From Elusimicrobiota bacterium (lineage in GTDB: Bacteria; Elusimicrobiota; Elusimicrobia; UBA1565; UBA9628): DNA of 48,257 bases. The DNA lies in NCBI GenBank assembly GCA_028865585.1, contig JAGWJU010000001.1, positions 1 through 48,257 on the forward strand, read 5' to 3'. Within the stretch, counting starts at the first letter, position 1, and every line of letters begins with the position of its first letter. Shown in pieces: positions 12,001 through 17,853 of this stretch. A program made the translations under genes and the position numbers. Under the pieces are notes generated by a model, which did no database searches, was not told the origin of the DNA, and worked only from the letters and a program-made list of their open reading frames with translations.

Positions 12001-12465
12001 CTACGGGGCCCGCCCGGCGAGAGTTTTGCGCATCTCCTTGAGGAACTCGACCGTCTTGGGCAAATCTCCATACGGAATGCGCACCCCCTTCTTCGACCAA
12101 CCCTTGTACGACTGATCCTCGACCCACTCGCGCAAATCCACGCCCGTGGCGTCCTTGAAGATGGTCACGCGCACGACCAGCTCGATGCCCATGCGCCGCG
12201 GGATGCGCGCCAACTCCTTCTCGGCCAGCGCCTCGGGTTCGGCGGGCAAAGACGACAGGGCCTGGATGACGCCTTCCAGGGCCGCGGCGTTGAGCGTGAT
12301 GCCGGCCTTGGTCGGCCCCGAGTAGTGATCCCCTTTGATGAAGGATCGGATTGAGCCGTAGCGGTGGCCGCGGTATTCGTCCACGTAGAAGCGGATTTGC
12401 GTGACGTCCGAGACGGAGATGGAGCCGATGTCCTTGAGAGGTTTGAATTCCTGGCTTTGGGGCAT
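12001..12465 (-). CDS. Tandem PC4/YdbC-like putative ssDNA-binding protein
   Basis: 154 aa with two internal repeats, each matching the PC4 pattern (beta-strands, then KG-ISL/RIP, then helix): IRFYVDEYRGHRYGSIRSFIKGDHYSGPTKAGITLNAAALEGVIQAL and LVVRVTIFKDATGVDLREWVEDQSYKGWSKKGVRIPYGDLPKTVEFLKEM. Confidence 0.6.
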   Translation of the reverse strand: MPQSQEFKPLKDIGSISVSDVTQIRFYVDEYRGHRYGSIRSFIKGDHYSGPTKAGITLNAAALEGVIQALSSLPAEPEALAEKELARIPRRMGIELVVRVTIFKDATGVDLREWVEDQSYKGWSKKGVRIPYGDLPKTVEFLKEMRKTLAGRAP

Positions 12466-12502: not shown

Positions 12503-12531
12503 TAGAGATTTTTCATCTCAAGGGCTATAAT
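12503..12531 (+). promoter_or_regulatory. Sigma70-like promoter (TAGAGA-17-TATAAT) giving a leaderless CNNM-EIIA mRNA
   Basis: TATAAT at 12526-12531, then 7 nt to the ATG at 12539. The -35-like TAGAGA sits at 12503-12508 with a 17-nt spacer. Confidence 0.5.
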
Positions 12532-12538
12532 GGGGGGC

Positions 12539-14050
12539 ATGAGCGCCTGGGTGTGGCTGCCCATTCTCCTAATCCTGATCAACGGCGCCTTCGTCTTGAT
12601 CGAATACTCCCTTCTGCGCGTGAGGCCCTCGCGCCTTGAGATTTTGGCGCGGCGGGGCAGCGCCGCGGCCAAGCTCGCCCAAGAGATGCAGGCGCGCTTC
12701 GACTATTACCTGGCCGCCATCCAGGTGGGGCTCATCCTGACCGCCCTGGCCTTGGGCCGCCTGGGGGAGCCCCTCGTGGCCGCGTGGGTGCAGGAGCGTT
12801 TTTCCGCGGCCGCCGCGGCGTGGCTTGGCCCCCGCTGGGACGCCGCCATCGCCTTTATCATCGCCCTGGCCGCGCTCACCTTCGTGATGTCCGTTTTCGG
12901 CGAGCTTTTGCCGCGGGCCGTGGCCTTGCGCCGGGCCGAGGCCGTGGCGCTGTGGGGGGCCTATCCGCTGAGGGTTTTCGCGGCGGCGTTCCGCCCCGCG
13001 GTGTCTCTGATGGCGCTCTCCTCGCGCGCGATTCTGAGGCTTCTGGGCCTCTCCGGCGCCGCGTCCTCGGAGACCTCCTTGTCCGCGGAGGAGATGCGCG
13101 TGCTCATCGGCGAGACCCAGGAAAAAGGCGCCCTGGCCCTGGAGCAGCTTTTTTTGCTGGAGAATCTCTTCGATTTCGGCAAGGCCGTGGCCGCGGACGC
13201 GATGGTGCCGCGCGAGAAAATCGCCGCCCTCTCCCTGGCCGAACCCTGGCCCGTCAACCTGGGAGTCATCCGCGCGCGCCGCTTTTCCCGCTATCCTCTT
13301 TACGAAGCCGATCTGGATTCGACCGTGGGCCTGGTCCACGTCAAGGATGTTTTCCTGGCGCAAAACGGTTCGGGTCCGCCGGACTTGCGGCGCCTCAAGC
13401 GCGAGCTTATGAGCGTCTCGGAGACCGAGCCTTTGGAGAAGCTGGTCAAAATCCTGCCCGATCGCGGGGTGCACATGGCGCTGGTGCGCAACGCCTTGGG
13501 CCGCGTGGCGGGGCTCATCACGCTTGAGGACATCATCGAGGAGCTGGTCGGCGAGGTTCACGACGAGTTCGACTTGCCCCAGGCCTGGTCCTTCATGGAC
13601 GTGGTCTCGCGCAAATCCGTGGCGGTGCATCTGCAGGCCGCGGACCGCGCCGCGGCGGTGCGCCGCGTCATGGGCCTTCTGGAAAAGGCGCACCCGGGCC
13701 TCATCCCCGCGGGCGCTCTCTCCGCGGTCCTGGAGCGCGAGGAAAGGCTCTCCAGCTGCATCGGCCGCGGCGTGGCCGTGCCGCACGCGCGCCTGGCTTC
13801 CATCGATAGGGGCCTGGTCGCGGTTGGGCGTTTCCATAAGCCCGTCGATTTCGGCGGCGACAAAGGGCCGGTCCGCCTGGTGTTTCTGGCGCTGACTCCG
13901 TCCGCGCACCCGGTCCTTCAGATCCGCATCCTCTCCCGCATCGCGTCCTTGGTCGCCAACGAGAACCTGCGCCGCAAGCTGCTTCACGCGCCGTCGGCGG
14001 AGAGCCTCTTCGACATCCTGCGCACCGCCGACACCATGCTGGCCGACTAG
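12539..14050 (+). CDS. CNNM/CorB-type (DUF21 + CBS pair) divalent-cation transporter with a C-terminal PTS EIIA(Ntr)-like domain
   Basis: N-terminal DUF21 transmembrane region (ILINGAFVLIEYSLLRVRPSRLE), then a CBS pair (..VHVKDVF.., ..GLITLEDIIEELVGEV). The C-terminal ~150 aa align with PtsN, including the phospho-His motif GRGVAVPHARL. The alternative ATG at 12530 overlaps the TATAAT box. Confidence 0.85.
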   Translation: MSAWVWLPILLILINGAFVLIEYSLLRVRPSRLEILARRGSAAAKLAQEMQARFDYYLAAIQVGLILTALALGRLGEPLVAAWVQERFSAAAAAWLGPRWDAAIAFIIALAALTFVMSVFGELLPRAVALRRAEAVALWGAYPLRVFAAAFRPAVSLMALSSRAILRLLGLSGAASSETSLSAEEMRVLIGETQEKGALALEQLFLLENLFDFGKAVAADAMVPREKIAALSLAEPWPVNLGVIRARRFSRYPLYEADLDSTVGLVHVKDVFLAQNGSGPPDLRRLKRELMSVSETEPLEKLVKILPDRGVHMALVRNALGRVAGLITLEDIIEELVGEVHDEFDLPQAWSFMDVVSRKSVAVHLQAADRAAAVRRVMGLLEKAHPGLIPAGALSAVLEREERLSSCIGRGVAVPHARLASIDRGLVAVGRFHKPVDFGGDKGPVRLVFLALTPSAHPVLQIRILSRIASLVANENLRRKLLHAPSAESLFDILRTADTMLAD

Positions 14051-16566: not shown

Positions 16567-17817
16567 CTACGCCAAGCGCTGGATGAGGATCGCCGCGAAG
16601 CCCGCCGCGAGCACGGCCAGCGTCGGCACGAGCATCCGGAGGCGCCCGCGCGCGCTGGCAGCGGGGCGAAAAAACAGCGGCCAGTTGAGGTTGCTTGCGG
16701 CGCTGACCATGGAGGCCAGAACCGCCGCGATTGCCGCGACCCGCTCGCCGACCTGGCCGCGCGCGCCCAGGTTCGCGGCCGAGGCGACCGCGCTCGCGCT
16801 GCTTAAAATCCCGCCTACGAGGCTTGCCCCGAAAAATCCCGAGCGGCCCAGGTGGCGCTCGGCCAGAACGCCCGCGGCCTCGATGGCGAAAAAGAGCGCG
16901 GCGAAGGCGGAGAGCCGGCGCAGGGAGATGGGCGAGGAGATTTTAAGCTCGAAGCCCCGGCGCGGCCCGTTGGACTGAATCTTGGCGAAGAGCAGGGCCG
17001 TCGCGGCCATGGCCGAAAGCGGAGCGGCGGCGAAGCGCGCGGAGGGCGGGTAGAGCAGCGCCAAAAGCAGCAGGTTGCGCGAGAACATGGCGAAGACGGT
17101 CAGCAGGGACGCTGCGGCCAGGATGGGTTCGGCGGCCTCGGTCAGGCCGCCCAGGGCGGCGGTCAGCTCCGCGACGGTGGCCGTGCTGTTGACCAAGCCG
17201 CCCAGGATGGCCGTGTAGTGGAATCCGCGCGTGCTCAAGAGGCGCAGGAGCACGTAGTTGACGAAGCCGATGCTGGCGATGACGATGATGGTGACCCAGA
17301 ATTCGCGCGGGTTCAAAAGCCCCCACGGGTCGACCAGGCGGTCCGGCAGAATCGGGTAGATGACGAAGCTCAGCAGGCCCAGGAGCACGGCGCTGCGGAT
17401 TTCCTCCGGGCGCAGGCGGCTGGCGAAATTGGTCAACTCCACCTTCCAGGTGAGCAAAATGGTGGTCAAAATCGCCGCGGCCACGGGCTCGAAGAAGCGC
17501 CCCTGCCCGATGAGCACGCCCAGCACGAAGGTCAGCACCAGGACGACCGAGGTGGTCACTTCCAGGGTCTTATCCAGCATCAGGCGGCGTATATTAAGGA
17601 AGGCGATGAGCACCAGCACGCCCGCCAGGGCGGCGATGGAGAAGGAGATGGACAGGAGCGCGCTGAGCATGCCCAGGAGCGCGGTAATCGCGAAGGTGCG
17701 CGCGCCCGCGTCCTTGTTGGACCACTCGCGCTCAAGGCCGATCAAGAGACCCGCGCCCAAAGACAGCAGCAGGCGCAAGGCCATGTCCTGGGCGGAAATG
17801 GGGATAGGGAGGGGCAC
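16567..17817 (-). CDS. MgtC/SapB-family membrane protein with DUF4010-like C-terminal region
   Basis: LRLLLSLGAGLLIGLEREW is the MgtC N-terminal signature, and the protein is polytopic and hydrophobic. The ORF-track start TTG 17853 coincides with a TTGACA -35 box, so GTG 17817 is preferred (7 nt after AATACT). Start uncertain. Confidence 0.7.
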   Translation of the reverse strand: MPLPIPISAQDMALRLLLSLGAGLLIGLEREWSNKDAGARTFAITALLGMLSALLSISFSIAALAGVLVLIAFLNIRRLMLDKTLEVTTSVVLVLTFVLGVLIGQGRFFEPVAAAILTTILLTWKVELTNFASRLRPEEIRSAVLLGLLSFVIYPILPDRLVDPWGLLNPREFWVTIIVIASIGFVNYVLLRLLSTRGFHYTAILGGLVNSTATVAELTAALGGLTEAAEPILAAASLLTVFAMFSRNLLLLALLYPPSARFAAAPLSAMAATALLFAKIQSNGPRRGFELKISSPISLRRLSAFAALFFAIEAAGVLAERHLGRSGFFGASLVGGILSSASAVASAANLGARGQVGERVAAIAAVLASMVSAASNLNWPLFFRPAASARGRLRMLVPTLAVLAAGFAAILIQRLA

Positions 17818-17824
17818 GGAAAAT

Positions 17825-17853
17825 AGTATTTCCCCAACGGCCATTATTGTCAA
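17825..17853 (-). promoter_or_regulatory. Sigma70-like promoter (TTGACA-17-AATACT) of the MgtC-like gene
   Basis: Minus strand reads TTGACA (17853-17848), spacer ATAATGGCCGTTGGGGA, AATACT (17830-17825), then 7 nt to the in-frame GTG at 17817. Confidence 0.45.

What the first reader, a model, noticed from the sequence alone, without database searches (positions are those of the whole stretch)
12539..14050. CNNM/CorB-type cation transporter fused to a PtsN-like EIIA domain
DUF21 + CBS-pair transporters normally end in a CorC_HlyC domain. Here the C-terminal ~150 aa instead align along their length with nitrogen-PTS EIIA (PtsN), including the phosphorylatable His context GRGVAVPHARL and the ..VRLVFLALTP.. 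strand. In enterobacteria, free PtsN regulates K+ transport systems by protein-protein contact according to its phosphorylation state. A covalent fusion suggests direct PTS(Ntr) phospho-control of Mg2+/divalent-cation efflux. An MgtC-family gene lies 2.5 kb downstream. No ptsP, npr or hprK is present in the window.
Basis: partly seen in the sequence, partly recalled or inferred. Interest (0 to 1): 0.6.

Follow-up and report, generated by a model that had tools for sequence, protein, structure and literature searches.

The report
CNNM cation exporter with PtsN-like tail
This gene encodes a CNNM/CorB-type membrane cation transporter whose usual C-terminal domain is replaced by a PtsN-like PTS signalling domain with an intact phosphorylation site. 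Ion export is therefore probably switched by the cell's PEP-driven phosphorelay, and the design is real and widespread but unstudied.

Summary
Window 12539-14050 (+) encodes a 503-aa protein with three parts:
- a DUF21/CNNM membrane domain
- a CBS pair
- a PTS_EIIA_2 domain (84 bits) placed exactly where CorB/CorC proteins carry CorC_HlyC

The EIIA part is closest to PtsN in sequence and fold. The phospho-His and the Arg57 equivalent are invariant in 81 homologues.

The fusion is found in about 130 of 401 sampled genomes of the phylum, all in the window's own class. It also occurs in MAGs labelled Myxococcales and Planctomycetota. This scan had already found the same fusion on other DNA.

- The genome does encode the phosphorelay: an hprK-rapZ-ptsH-ptsI cluster. 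No EIIC was found, so a regulatory PTS is plausible.
- EI has no GAF domain, so this is not PTS(Ntr) in the strict sense.
- Mg2+ as substrate is unproven. Three of the five TpCorC Mg2+ ligands are replaced.
- The MgtC-like neighbour is not conserved.

New support comes from three directions:
- A second EIIA protein is encoded directly after mgtA in 14 of 19 relatives.
- The same CBS-EIIA cassette sits on TerC and cation/proton antiporters.
- E. coli PtsN is reported to bind the CorC domain of YcgO.

No paper describing this architecture was found.

Verdict: a new variant of a known kind, of moderate interest.

The parts
12503..12531 (+). Sigma-70-like promoter site, TAGAGA-17-TATAAT. The -10 box ends 7 nt before the ATG at 12539, so the mRNA is probably leaderless or has a very short leader.
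   Evidence: Consensus scan: 10 of 12 matches, 1 site found against 0.2 expected from shuffles. Sequence read. This is a consensus match only, not shown to function.
12539..14050 (+). Coding sequence of the CNNM-CBS-EIIA fusion protein: 503 aa, stop codon included. An upstream in-frame ATG at 12530 would give 506 aa, and tool results use that numbering; subtract 3 for the 503-aa protein.
   Evidence: ORF list. Pfam architecture. At least 385 homologues, of which all 120 listed have the same architecture. Start choice.
12563..13138 (+). DUF21/CNNM transmembrane domain. It keeps the pi-helix motif GELLPR (E125, P128 and R129 invariant) and E25. At the TpCorC Mg2+ ligand positions S43, S47 and N90 it has N18, V22 and L68.
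   Evidence: Pfam PF01595, E 1e-39. Alignments to TpCorC 7cfg and MtCorB 7m1t. Ligand list from PMC7875539. AF2 pLDDT above 90 here.
13181..13564 (+). CBS pair (Bateman module), about residues 218-345. R254 is invariant and corresponds to MtCorB R235, the residue changed in the R235L mutant structure 7m1u. The module ends in the conserved CNNM linker EELVGEVHDEFD.
   Evidence: Pfam CBS at 290-340. Foldseek TM 0.86-0.92 to CorC/CorB CBS-pair structures. The R235 and R235L alignments. Invariant columns.
13604..14023 (+). PtsN-like PTS EIIA (type 2) domain, occupying the position of CorC_HlyC.
   Evidence: PF00359, 84-87 bits. PtsN structures are the best solved relatives. Foldseek gives 1a6j TM 0.89, rmsd 1.7 A. 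NCBIfam PtsN model scores 53.9 bits, below its 138.7 cut-off.
13784..13786 (+). Codon of the predicted phospho-acceptor His (H419 in 506-aa numbering, H416 in the 503-aa protein), within GRGVAVPHARL. It is equivalent to E. coli PtsN His73.
   Evidence: Translation. Alignment to 1a6j. Invariant in 81 aligned homologues and at least 98% conserved in 121.
13736..13738 (+). Codon of R403 (R400 in the 503-aa protein). It aligns with the Arg of the LTREK segment of E. coli PtsN, which is Arg57 by the His73 numbering.
   Evidence: Alignment to 1a6j. Invariant column.

Best explanation
The gene encodes a dimeric CNNM/CorB-type secondary cation exporter. Mg2+ is the default guess for the substrate, at roughly even odds. 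Its cytoplasmic regulatory region has two inputs: the family-typical Mg-ATP-binding CBS pair, and a covalently attached PtsN-like EIIA domain in place of CorC_HlyC.

The proposed switch works as follows. PEP phosphorylates EI, EI phosphorylates HPr on His15, and HPr~P phosphorylates the EIIA domain on His416 (His419 in tool numbering). HprK/P opposes this by phosphorylating HPr on Ser46. The phosphorylation state of the tail then changes how it packs against the CBS-pair dimer and so opens or closes transport. This would be an intramolecular version of what free, unphosphorylated PtsN does to TrkA, KdpD and YcgO in E. coli.

Shown here: the architecture, the conserved catalytic residues, the presence of the phosphorelay, and the apparent absence of sugar-PTS permeases.

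Inferred: phosphotransfer to this domain, the effect on transport, its sign, and the substrate.
For: - **Architecture and fold:**
- **Exact replacement:** the EIIA domain starts just after the CNNM linker EELVGEVHDEFD.
- **Active-site residues under selection:** H419, P418, R421 and R403 are invariant in 81 homologues spanning 40-94% identity. The G-x-[AG]-x-PH-x-R motif is also present in members labelled Myxococcales and in one of two Planctomycetota members.
- **Phosphorelay in the same genome:** hprK-rapZ-ptsH-ptsI lie on contig C327, and HPr has His15 and Ser46 contexts. No PTS_EIIC and no EIIA-Man were found, so the PTS is plausibly regulatory. HPr is present in 392 of 401 genomes of the phylum.
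- **Transport machinery kept:** the pi-helix GExxP[KR], E25, and the Arg equivalent to MtCorB R235.
- **Sole family member:** it is the only CNNM protein in this genome.
- **Independent parallels:** (i) a 257-aa EIIA_2 protein with an invariant His is encoded 3-20 nt after mgtA (TIGR01524, 671 bits) here and in 14 of 19 relatives from three families. (ii) The same CBS+EIIA_2 cassette ends TerC and Na_H_Exchanger+TrkA_N transporters, and EIIA_2 alone ends other CPA antiporters. (iii) E. coli unphosphorylated PtsN inhibits the antiporter YcgO by binding its C-terminal CorC_HlyC-type domain (PMC11808508).
Against: - There is no experimental datum on any member.
- PtsN His120 is replaced by a nearly invariant Gln.
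- The EIIA part scores below the PtsN equivalog cut-off, 53.9 against 138.7 bits.
- EI has no GAF domain, so the nitrogen-sensing logic of PTS(Ntr) does not transfer.
- Two free EIIA_2 proteins in the genome could be the only real HPr clients.
- HPr is almost universal in the phylum, so co-occurrence says nothing.
- The AF2 inter-domain geometry is unreliable at pTM 0.45, so no contact between the EIIA domain and the CBS pair is shown.
- The TpCorC Mg2+ ligands S43, S47 and N90 are not conserved, which weakens the Mg2+ part. However, CorC_HlyC-bearing CNNM paralogues in the same phylum deviate in the same way, and mutating these ligands in TtCorB did not abolish transport (PMC8242095).
- One distant member (P0220) shows no PH motif at the expected place.
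Confidence: 0.55

Rival explanations
1. The switch is the same but the substrate is different. The protein would export something other than Mg2+, such as polyamines (as PaeA does) or another cation, and the PTS link would couple that export to carbon and energy status. This rival concerns the substrate only and is compatible with the proposed switch.
For: - Three of the five TpCorC Mg2+ ligands are replaced: N18, V22 and L/I/V68 stand for S43, S47 and N90.
- The putative Na+ site residue N94 is Ala, Ser or Thr.
- The TM2 motif QxG[LIV] is shared with E. coli PaeA, which has QIGLN.
- The best NCBIfam hit is PaeA.
Against: - PaeA scores 118 bits against a cut-off of 500.
- PaeA keeps the TM1 serines that this family lacks, and it has AD instead of GE in TM3.
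- The same ligand substitutions occur in ordinary CorC_HlyC-bearing CNNMs of the phylum.
- This is the only CNNM in a genome that imports Mg2+ through MgtA.
- The lysA-type decarboxylase next door in one family is housekeeping LysA (442 bits, above its cut-off) and gives no polyamine link.
Confidence: 0.35
2. The EIIA domain is a phosphorylation-independent structural module used for dimerisation, ligand binding or docking. It would merely substitute for CorC_HlyC, much as the EIIA-like fold serves in the cytoplasmic domain of Band 3 anion exchangers.
For: - Several family members also hit Pfam Band_3_cyto, PF07565.
- PtsN His120 is replaced by Gln.
- The C-terminal domains of CNNM proteins are interchangeable across life: CorC_HlyC in prokaryotes and CNBH in eukaryotes (PMC8242095).
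- One distant member lacks the PH motif.
Against: The His, the preceding Pro, the following Arg and the Arg57 equivalent are invariant down to 40% identity, and the motif is kept in other phyla. Such conservation is hard to explain without phosphoryl chemistry. A complete EI/HPr relay with no sugar permease is present.
Confidence: 0.12
3. The signal runs the other way. The membrane protein would be a sensor or phosphate sink whose conformation, set by Mg-ATP in the CBS pair or by substrate occupancy, controls how readily its EIIA domain draws phosphoryl groups from HPr~P. That would tune the other PTS outputs: the free EIIA proteins, the mgtA partner, and RapZ/HprK-linked regulation.
For: - One HPr serves at least three EIIA_2 domains in this genome, so competition for HPr~P is built in.
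- The CBS pair keeps the Arg that corresponds to MtCorB R235.
- From general knowledge of PTS regulation, sugar-PTS EIIs signal by draining phosphoryl groups.
Against: There is no acceptor downstream of this EIIA domain (no EIIB or EIIC), so without a phosphatase it cannot act as a continuous sink. The transport residues of the DUF21 domain are conserved, which argues that transport itself is the selected function.
Confidence: 0.1

Closest known systems
Prokaryotic CNNM/CorB/CorC transporters (DUF21 + CBS pair + CorC_HlyC), e.g. MtCorB (PDB 7m1t), TpCorC (7cfg, 7cfh) and TtCorB
   Same: - The DUF21 membrane domain and the CBS pair are homologous. phmmer gives E 1.3e-25 to 7m1t over residues 12-345. 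Foldseek ranks MtCorB first, with CBS-pair TM about 0.9.
- The pi-helix GExxP[KR], E25, the Arg equivalent to MtCorB R235, and the EE[IL]VGE.xDE linker are all kept.
   Different: - The C-terminal CorC_HlyC domain is absent and replaced by PTS_EIIA_2.
- The TpCorC Mg2+ ligands S43, S47 and N90 are N, V and L/I/V, and K134 is R.
PtsN (EIIA-Ntr) of Proteobacteria and its transporter targets TrkA, KdpD and YcgO
   Same: - Same fold and closest sequence relatives.
- The phospho-His73 and Arg57 equivalents are invariant.
- The regulatory logic fits: PtsN controls cation transporters according to its phosphorylation state (PMC13104625). It binds the CorC_HlyC-type domain of YcgO (PMC11808508), which is the very domain type that the EIIA tail replaces here.
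   Different: - It is covalently fused rather than free.
- It scores below the PtsN equivalog cut-off.
- The His120 equivalent is Gln.
- It is not in an rpoN operon.
- The upstream relay is EI without GAF, plus HPr and HprK, rather than PtsP and NPr.
- The target is a CNNM protein rather than a K+ system.
Other cation transporters ending in EIIA_2: Na_H_Exchanger+EIIA_2, Na_H_Exchanger+TrkA_N+CBS+EIIA_2, and TerC+CBS+EIIA_2 (uncharacterised metagenomic proteins P0142-P0144, P0211, P0213, P0229)
   Same: They carry the same C-terminal EIIA_2 domain with the G-x-A-x-PH-x-[RQ] motif. In three of them the same CBS+EIIA cassette aligns over the whole 222-aa query.
   Different: The membrane domains and therefore the substrates differ. 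None has been characterised.
PaeA (YtfL), the cadaverine/putrescine exporter of E. coli and Salmonella
   Same: It has a CNNM-family DUF21 domain and CBS pair. It is the best NCBIfam hit and shares the TM2 motif QxG[LIV].
   Different: The score is 118 bits against a cut-off of 500. PaeA keeps the TM1 serines, has AD instead of GE in TM3, and ends in CorC_HlyC rather than EIIA.

Membership tests
CNNM/CorB/CorC transporter family (Pfam CNNM, TC 1.A.112) | DUF21/CNNM transmembrane domain | tested here: met
   PF01595 scores 136 bits against a cut-off of 28.4. It aligns to MtCorB and TpCorC. Foldseek top hit is 7m1t.
CNNM/CorB/CorC transporter family (Pfam CNNM, TC 1.A.112) | Cytoplasmic CBS pair carrying the Arg that corresponds to MtCorB R235 | tested here: met
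   Pfam CBS hit. Foldseek TM 0.86-0.92 to CorC/CorB CBS pairs. R254 aligns with MtCorB R235, the residue changed in the 7m1u R235L mutant, and is invariant. Nucleotide binding itself was not tested.
CNNM/CorB/CorC transporter family (Pfam CNNM, TC 1.A.112) | Conserved pi-helical turn GExxPK in TM3 | tested here: met
   The motif is GELLPR. E125, P128 and R129 are invariant, with K conservatively replaced by R here and K present in other members.
CNNM/CorB/CorC transporter family (Pfam CNNM, TC 1.A.112) | Mg2+ coordination set of TpCorC/CNNM2/CNNM4 (S43, S47, N90, G129, E130) | tested here: not met
   Only G124 and E125 are kept. S43 becomes N18, S47 becomes V22, and N90 becomes L68 (I or V in relatives). 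Ordinary CNNM paralogues in the phylum deviate in the same way, so this set defines a subgroup rather than the whole family.
CNNM/CorB/CorC transporter family (Pfam CNNM, TC 1.A.112) | C-terminal CorC_HlyC domain (prokaryotic members) | tested here: not met
   There is no PF03471 hit in the protein or in the whole genome. The position is occupied by PTS_EIIA_2.
CNNM/CorB/CorC transporter family (Pfam CNNM, TC 1.A.112) | Mg2+ (or other cation) transport activity | not testable with these tools
   This needs proteoliposome or complementation assays.
PtsN / EIIA-Ntr (TIGR01419, PRK10896) | PTS_EIIA_2 fold | tested here: met
   PF00359 scores 83.9 bits against a cut-off of 27. Foldseek gives 1a6j TM 0.89, rmsd 1.7 A.
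PtsN / EIIA-Ntr (TIGR01419, PRK10896) | Phosphorylatable His (E. coli His73) in G-x-G-x-A-x-P-H, and the Arg57 equivalent | tested here: met
   GRGVAVPH aligns with GNGIAIPH. H419 and R403 are invariant in 81 sequences.
PtsN / EIIA-Ntr (TIGR01419, PRK10896) | Second active-site His (E. coli His120) | tested here: not met
   It aligns with Q464, which is nearly invariant in the family.
PtsN / EIIA-Ntr (TIGR01419, PRK10896) | Score above the curated equivalog cut-off, as a free-standing protein of about 160 aa | tested here: not met
   TIGR01419 scores 53.9 against 138.7, and PRK10896 scores 46.7 against 221. The domain is the C-terminus of a 503-aa membrane protein.
PtsN / EIIA-Ntr (TIGR01419, PRK10896) | Phosphorylation by NPr/HPr~P | not testable with these tools
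   EI and HPr genes exist in the genome, but phosphotransfer must be measured.
PTS(Ntr) phosphorelay (PtsP-PtsO-PtsN) | EI-Ntr carrying an N-terminal GAF domain | tested here: not met
   The only EI found is 583 aa and consists of PEP-utilisers_N, the mobile domain and PEP-utilizers_C, with no GAF. It matches the description of 'regulatory EI in organisms without PTS permeases' in PMC2405797; no phylogeny was done.
PTS(Ntr) phosphorelay (PtsP-PtsO-PtsN) | No sugar-transporting EIIB/EIIC, i.e. a purely regulatory chain | tested here: inconclusive
   PF02378 (PTS_EIIC) and PF03610 (EIIA-Man) were not found. However, the genome is only 86.6% complete, and the other EIIC families (mannose, galactitol, ascorbate) were not searched.
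PaeA polyamine exporter (NF052568) | Score above the curated equivalog cut-off | tested here: not met
   118.5 bits against a cut-off of 500.

The most novel reading that the evidence does not exclude
In this lineage a permease-less PTS (EI-HPr-HprK) would act as master regulator of magnesium balance, working on both sides at once. HPr~P would phosphorylate the EIIA tail of the sole CNNM exporter and also the dedicated EIIA protein encoded behind the MgtA importer, so that import and export are switched reciprocally by the PEP and energy state.

More generally, CBS+EIIA would be a portable phospho-switch cassette that evolution has plugged onto unrelated cation transporters (CNNM, TerC, CPA). 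That would predict that free PtsN also controls CorC_HlyC-bearing CNNM and TerC transporters in Proteobacteria.
Probability: 0.25. Interest if true: 0.75.

Novelty: new variant of a known kind. Interest (0 to 1): 0.55.

Why it matters
CNNM/CorB proteins are the least understood of the major Mg2+ transport families, and the role of their C-terminal domain is unclear. PtsN is known to control K+ systems, but no link to Mg2+ or to CNNM proteins appears in the PTS(Ntr) review I searched.

A natural covalent fusion is a 'Rosetta stone'. It says that an EIIA-Ntr-type domain and the CBS-pair region of a CNNM transporter work together. It also provides a simple system, one polypeptide plus EI and HPr, in which histidine-phosphorylation control of an ion transporter could be reconstituted.

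Three further observations point to a broader, undescribed layer of PTS control over cation homeostasis in little-studied phyla:
- the mgtA-EIIA gene pair
- the TerC and CPA fusions
- the reported binding of PtsN to the CorC domain of YcgO

Tried and rejected
1. **Assembly or frameshift artefact: rejected.** The same open frame occurs in about 130 genomes and in all 120 top database hits.

2. **Functional operon partners from gene neighbourhood.**
   - A PC4-like gene is divergently adjacent in all 11 close loci.
   - Twelve more distant members (31-42% identity) share none of the window's neighbours, so this is probably inherited synteny.
   - The downstream genes vary: hemE, hemY or rlmN.

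3. **Polyamine link through a neighbouring Orn/DAP/Arg-decarboxylase in one family: rejected.** The gene is LysA, TIGR01048 at 442 bits against a cut-off of 298.

4. **MgtC-like neighbour as support: not conserved**. MgtC/DUF4010 proteins are also not established transporters; that last point is from my own knowledge.

5. **Co-occurrence of the fusion with HPr: uninformative.** HPr is found in 392 of 401 genomes of the phylum.

6. **Reading domain contacts from the AF2 model: not attempted.** pTM is 0.45 and the linkers at 196-213 and 347-350 have pLDDT below 50.

7. **Using loss of the TpCorC ligands as proof of a non-Mg2+ substrate: weakened.** CorC_HlyC-bearing paralogues in the phylum lack them too, and TtCorB ligand mutants still transport.

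8. **Literature.**
   - No paper holds both CNNM and PTS_EIIA_2.
   - The Barabote & Saier PTS genomics review could not be read, so an earlier passing mention of such fusions cannot be excluded.
Full report
**Numbering.** Residue numbers follow the 506-aa frame from the ATG at 12530, as used in the tool calls. Subtract 3 for the likely true 503-aa protein.

**Observation**

The window carries one uninterrupted + strand ORF at 12530..14050. Pfam finds three domains:
- CNNM/DUF21 at residues 12-203, E 1.1e-39
- a CBS domain at 290-340
- PTS_EIIA_2 at 360-498, E 1.4e-23, 83.9 bits against a cut-off of 27

A promoter-like TAGAGA-17-TATAAT site ends at 12531, so its -10 box overlaps the first ATG. 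Most homologues start at the second Met.

**Domain identities**

The membrane and CBS parts match CorB/CorC:
- phmmer against solved structures gives the archaeal CorB (7m1t) over residues 12-345 at E 1.3e-25, followed by many CorC CBS-pair structures.

The tail matches IIA-Ntr:
- IIA-Ntr of Neisseria, E. coli and Burkholderia score E 4e-12 to 2e-11, well ahead of IIA-Mtl at 3e-5.

The structure prediction agrees:
- An AlphaFold2 model built on 81 homologues has mean pLDDT 88.7. Its pTM is 0.45, so the domains are reliable but their mutual arrangement is not.
- Foldseek ranks MtCorB first, CorC CBS pairs at TM about 0.9, and E. coli IIA-Ntr 1a6j at TM 0.89 with rmsd 1.7 A.

The EIIA domain begins right after the conserved CNNM linker EELVGEVHDEFD, which is where CorC_HlyC normally starts. 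No CorC_HlyC domain exists in the protein or in the 86.6%-complete genome.

**Conservation**

In an 81-sequence alignment spanning 40-94% identity, the following are invariant:
- H419, which aligns with E. coli PtsN His73
- P418 and R421
- R403, which aligns with PtsN Arg57

PtsN His120 is replaced by a nearly invariant Gln.

On the transporter side:
- E25, E125, P128 and R129 (the pi-helix GExxP[KR]) are invariant.
- R254 is invariant and is the equivalent of MtCorB R235, the residue changed in the R235L mutant structure.

**Substrate caveat**

The five residues that coordinate dehydrated Mg2+ in TpCorC are S43, S47, N90, G129 and E130. The paper describes them as strictly conserved in human CNNM2 and CNNM4 (PMC7875539). 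Here they read N18, V22, L68 (I or V in relatives), G124 and E125. The proposed Na+ site residue N94 is Ala, Ser or Thr.

Two further points lean away from Mg2+:
- The TM2 motif QxG[LIV] resembles E. coli PaeA, the polyamine exporter.
- PaeA is the best NCBIfam hit, although it scores 118 bits against a cut-off of 500.

Three points weaken that reading:
- CorC_HlyC-bearing CNNM paralogues from other classes of the phylum show the same substitutions.
- Alanine mutants of these ligands in TtCorB still transport Mg2+ (PMC8242095).
- This is the only CNNM protein in a genome that has an MgtA importer.

I therefore treat Mg2+ as the default guess, at about even odds.

**Phosphorelay**

The window has no PTS genes, but contig C327 of the same genome carries hprK-rapZ-ptsH-ptsI in a row.
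- HPr has both the His15 (GFHARPA) and the Ser46 (GKSVLG) contexts.
- EI is a 583-aa PtsI-type protein without a GAF domain, so this is not PtsP.
- PTS_EIIC and EIIA-Man were not found. The genome is incomplete and other EIIC families were not searched.

The picture fits a regulatory, permease-less PTS of the kind described in PMC2405797. It is not the proteobacterial PTS(Ntr) in the strict sense.

Two further EIIA_2 proteins exist:
- a PtsN-like one on contig C421
- a 257-aa one on contig C291

**Distribution**

All 120 best database hits share the architecture. Where they are named, they carry only generic CNNM/DUF21 labels from Elusimicrobia or Elusimicrobiota MAGs.

In a sample of 401 genomes of the phylum:
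- About 130 have a near full-length match, covering roughly residues 10-500, with identity down to 30%.
- All of these lie in the window's own class.
- The other classes have only ordinary CNNM proteins.
- Two sister families carry about 350-aa versions that stop right after the linker.

A search of 1.84 billion representative proteins with the CBS2+EIIA part found 27 clusters at E below 1e-30. Members labelled Myxococcales and Planctomycetota have the same three domains and the same DUF21 subtype.

**Parallels that bear on function**

1. **A second EIIA protein behind mgtA.**
   - The 257-aa EIIA_2 protein on C291 starts 4 nt after the stop of mgtA (TIGR01524, 671 bits, above its cut-off even as a fragment).
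   - The pair is kept in 14 of 19 relatives' loci from three families.
   - Its His is invariant.

2. **The same cassette on other cation transporters.**
   - The CBS+EIIA_2 cassette ends TerC proteins and Na_H_Exchanger+TrkA_N proteins.
   - EIIA_2 alone, in one or two copies, ends other CPA antiporters.

3. **The E. coli precedent.**
   - Unphosphorylated PtsN is reported to inhibit the K+/H+ antiporter YcgO.
   - It does so by binding the C-terminal CorC_HlyC-type domain (PMC11808508).
   - That is the same domain type which the EIIA tail replaces here.

These observations make a regulatory coupling between EIIA-Ntr-type domains and the cytoplasmic regulatory regions of cation transporters plausible. 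They do not prove it for this protein.

**Neighbourhood**

- A PC4-like gene (12001-12465, minus strand) is divergently adjacent in all 11 close loci, but in none of 12 more distant ones.
- Downstream genes vary between hemE, hemY and rlmN.
- The MgtC/DUF4010 gene 2.5 kb downstream is real. It is not a conserved neighbour, because in three relatives rlmN directly follows the gene.
- The decarboxylase next door in one family is LysA.

No operon partner emerges.

**Literature and earlier notes**

- No held paper contains both CNNM and PTS_EIIA_2.
- The 2026 PTS(Ntr) review mentions neither magnesium nor fusions.
- The scan's own notebook shows that the same fusion was found and confirmed on at least 11 other genomes, with the same reading.

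- the phosphorelay genes in the same genome
- the mgtA-EIIA pair
- the TerC and CPA cassette fusions
- the ligand analysis
- the start-codon assignment
- the YcgO-CorC precedent

**Verdict**

The protein is best described as a CNNM-family cation exporter with a PtsN-like phospho-switch in place of CorC_HlyC. Phosphorylation by HPr~P and control of transport are inferred with confidence of about 0.55, and the substrate is open. It is a new variant of a known kind, uncharacterised and readily testable.

Noticed in passing
Own genome contig C291:1-2304 (locus L032). Relatives: L033-L051.: An mgtA gene (Mg2+-importing P-type ATPase, TIGR01524, 671 bits) is followed 4 nt later by a 257-aa protein. 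That protein has an N-terminal PTS_EIIA_2 domain with an invariant GxACPH motif and an unassigned C-terminal half of about 120 aa. The gene pair is kept in 14 of 19 relatives from three families.
   Followed up: partly
Proteins P0211, P0213, P0229 and P0142-P0144, P0177, P0185, P0204, P0232, P0242 (metagenomic representatives): The CBS+EIIA_2 cassette also ends TerC-family and Na_H_Exchanger+TrkA_N transporters. Other CPA antiporters end in one or two EIIA_2 domains. This suggests a portable PTS-responsive module on cation transporters.
   Followed up: partly
Own genome contig C327:8813-12655 (loci L004-L006): An hprK-rapZ-ptsH-ptsI cluster sits at the end of a contig. EI has no GAF domain. 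No PTS_EIIC or EIIA-Man was found in the 86.6%-complete genome, so the PTS looks purely regulatory.
   Followed up: partly
window 12001-12465 (-): A 154-aa protein with two PC4-like units (Pfam PC4, 2 stretches) is divergently adjacent to the CNNM-EIIA gene in all 11 close relatives. It is more conserved than the transporter, at 60-95% identity. In more distant members this adjacency is lost.
   Followed up: partly
Loci L053, L054, L058 (genomes G305, G112, G371): Sister families of the same class carry about 350-aa CNNM+CBS proteins that end just after the GE/DIxDEHD linker, with no C-terminal domain at all. One of them (f13) has the same DUF21 subtype as the fusion family, so the EIIA tail was either lost or never gained there.
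   Followed up: no
Protein P0220 (MAG labelled Planctomycetota): This distant member has the CNNM+CBS+EIIA_2 architecture but shows no PH motif at the expected phospho-site position. It may be a degenerate, non-phosphorylatable tail.
   Followed up: no
window 16567-17853 (-): This is an MgtC + DUF4010 membrane protein. In the window, hemE, hemY and this gene lie between the CNNM-EIIA gene and rlmN. In three relatives rlmN directly follows the CNNM-EIIA gene.
   Followed up: partly
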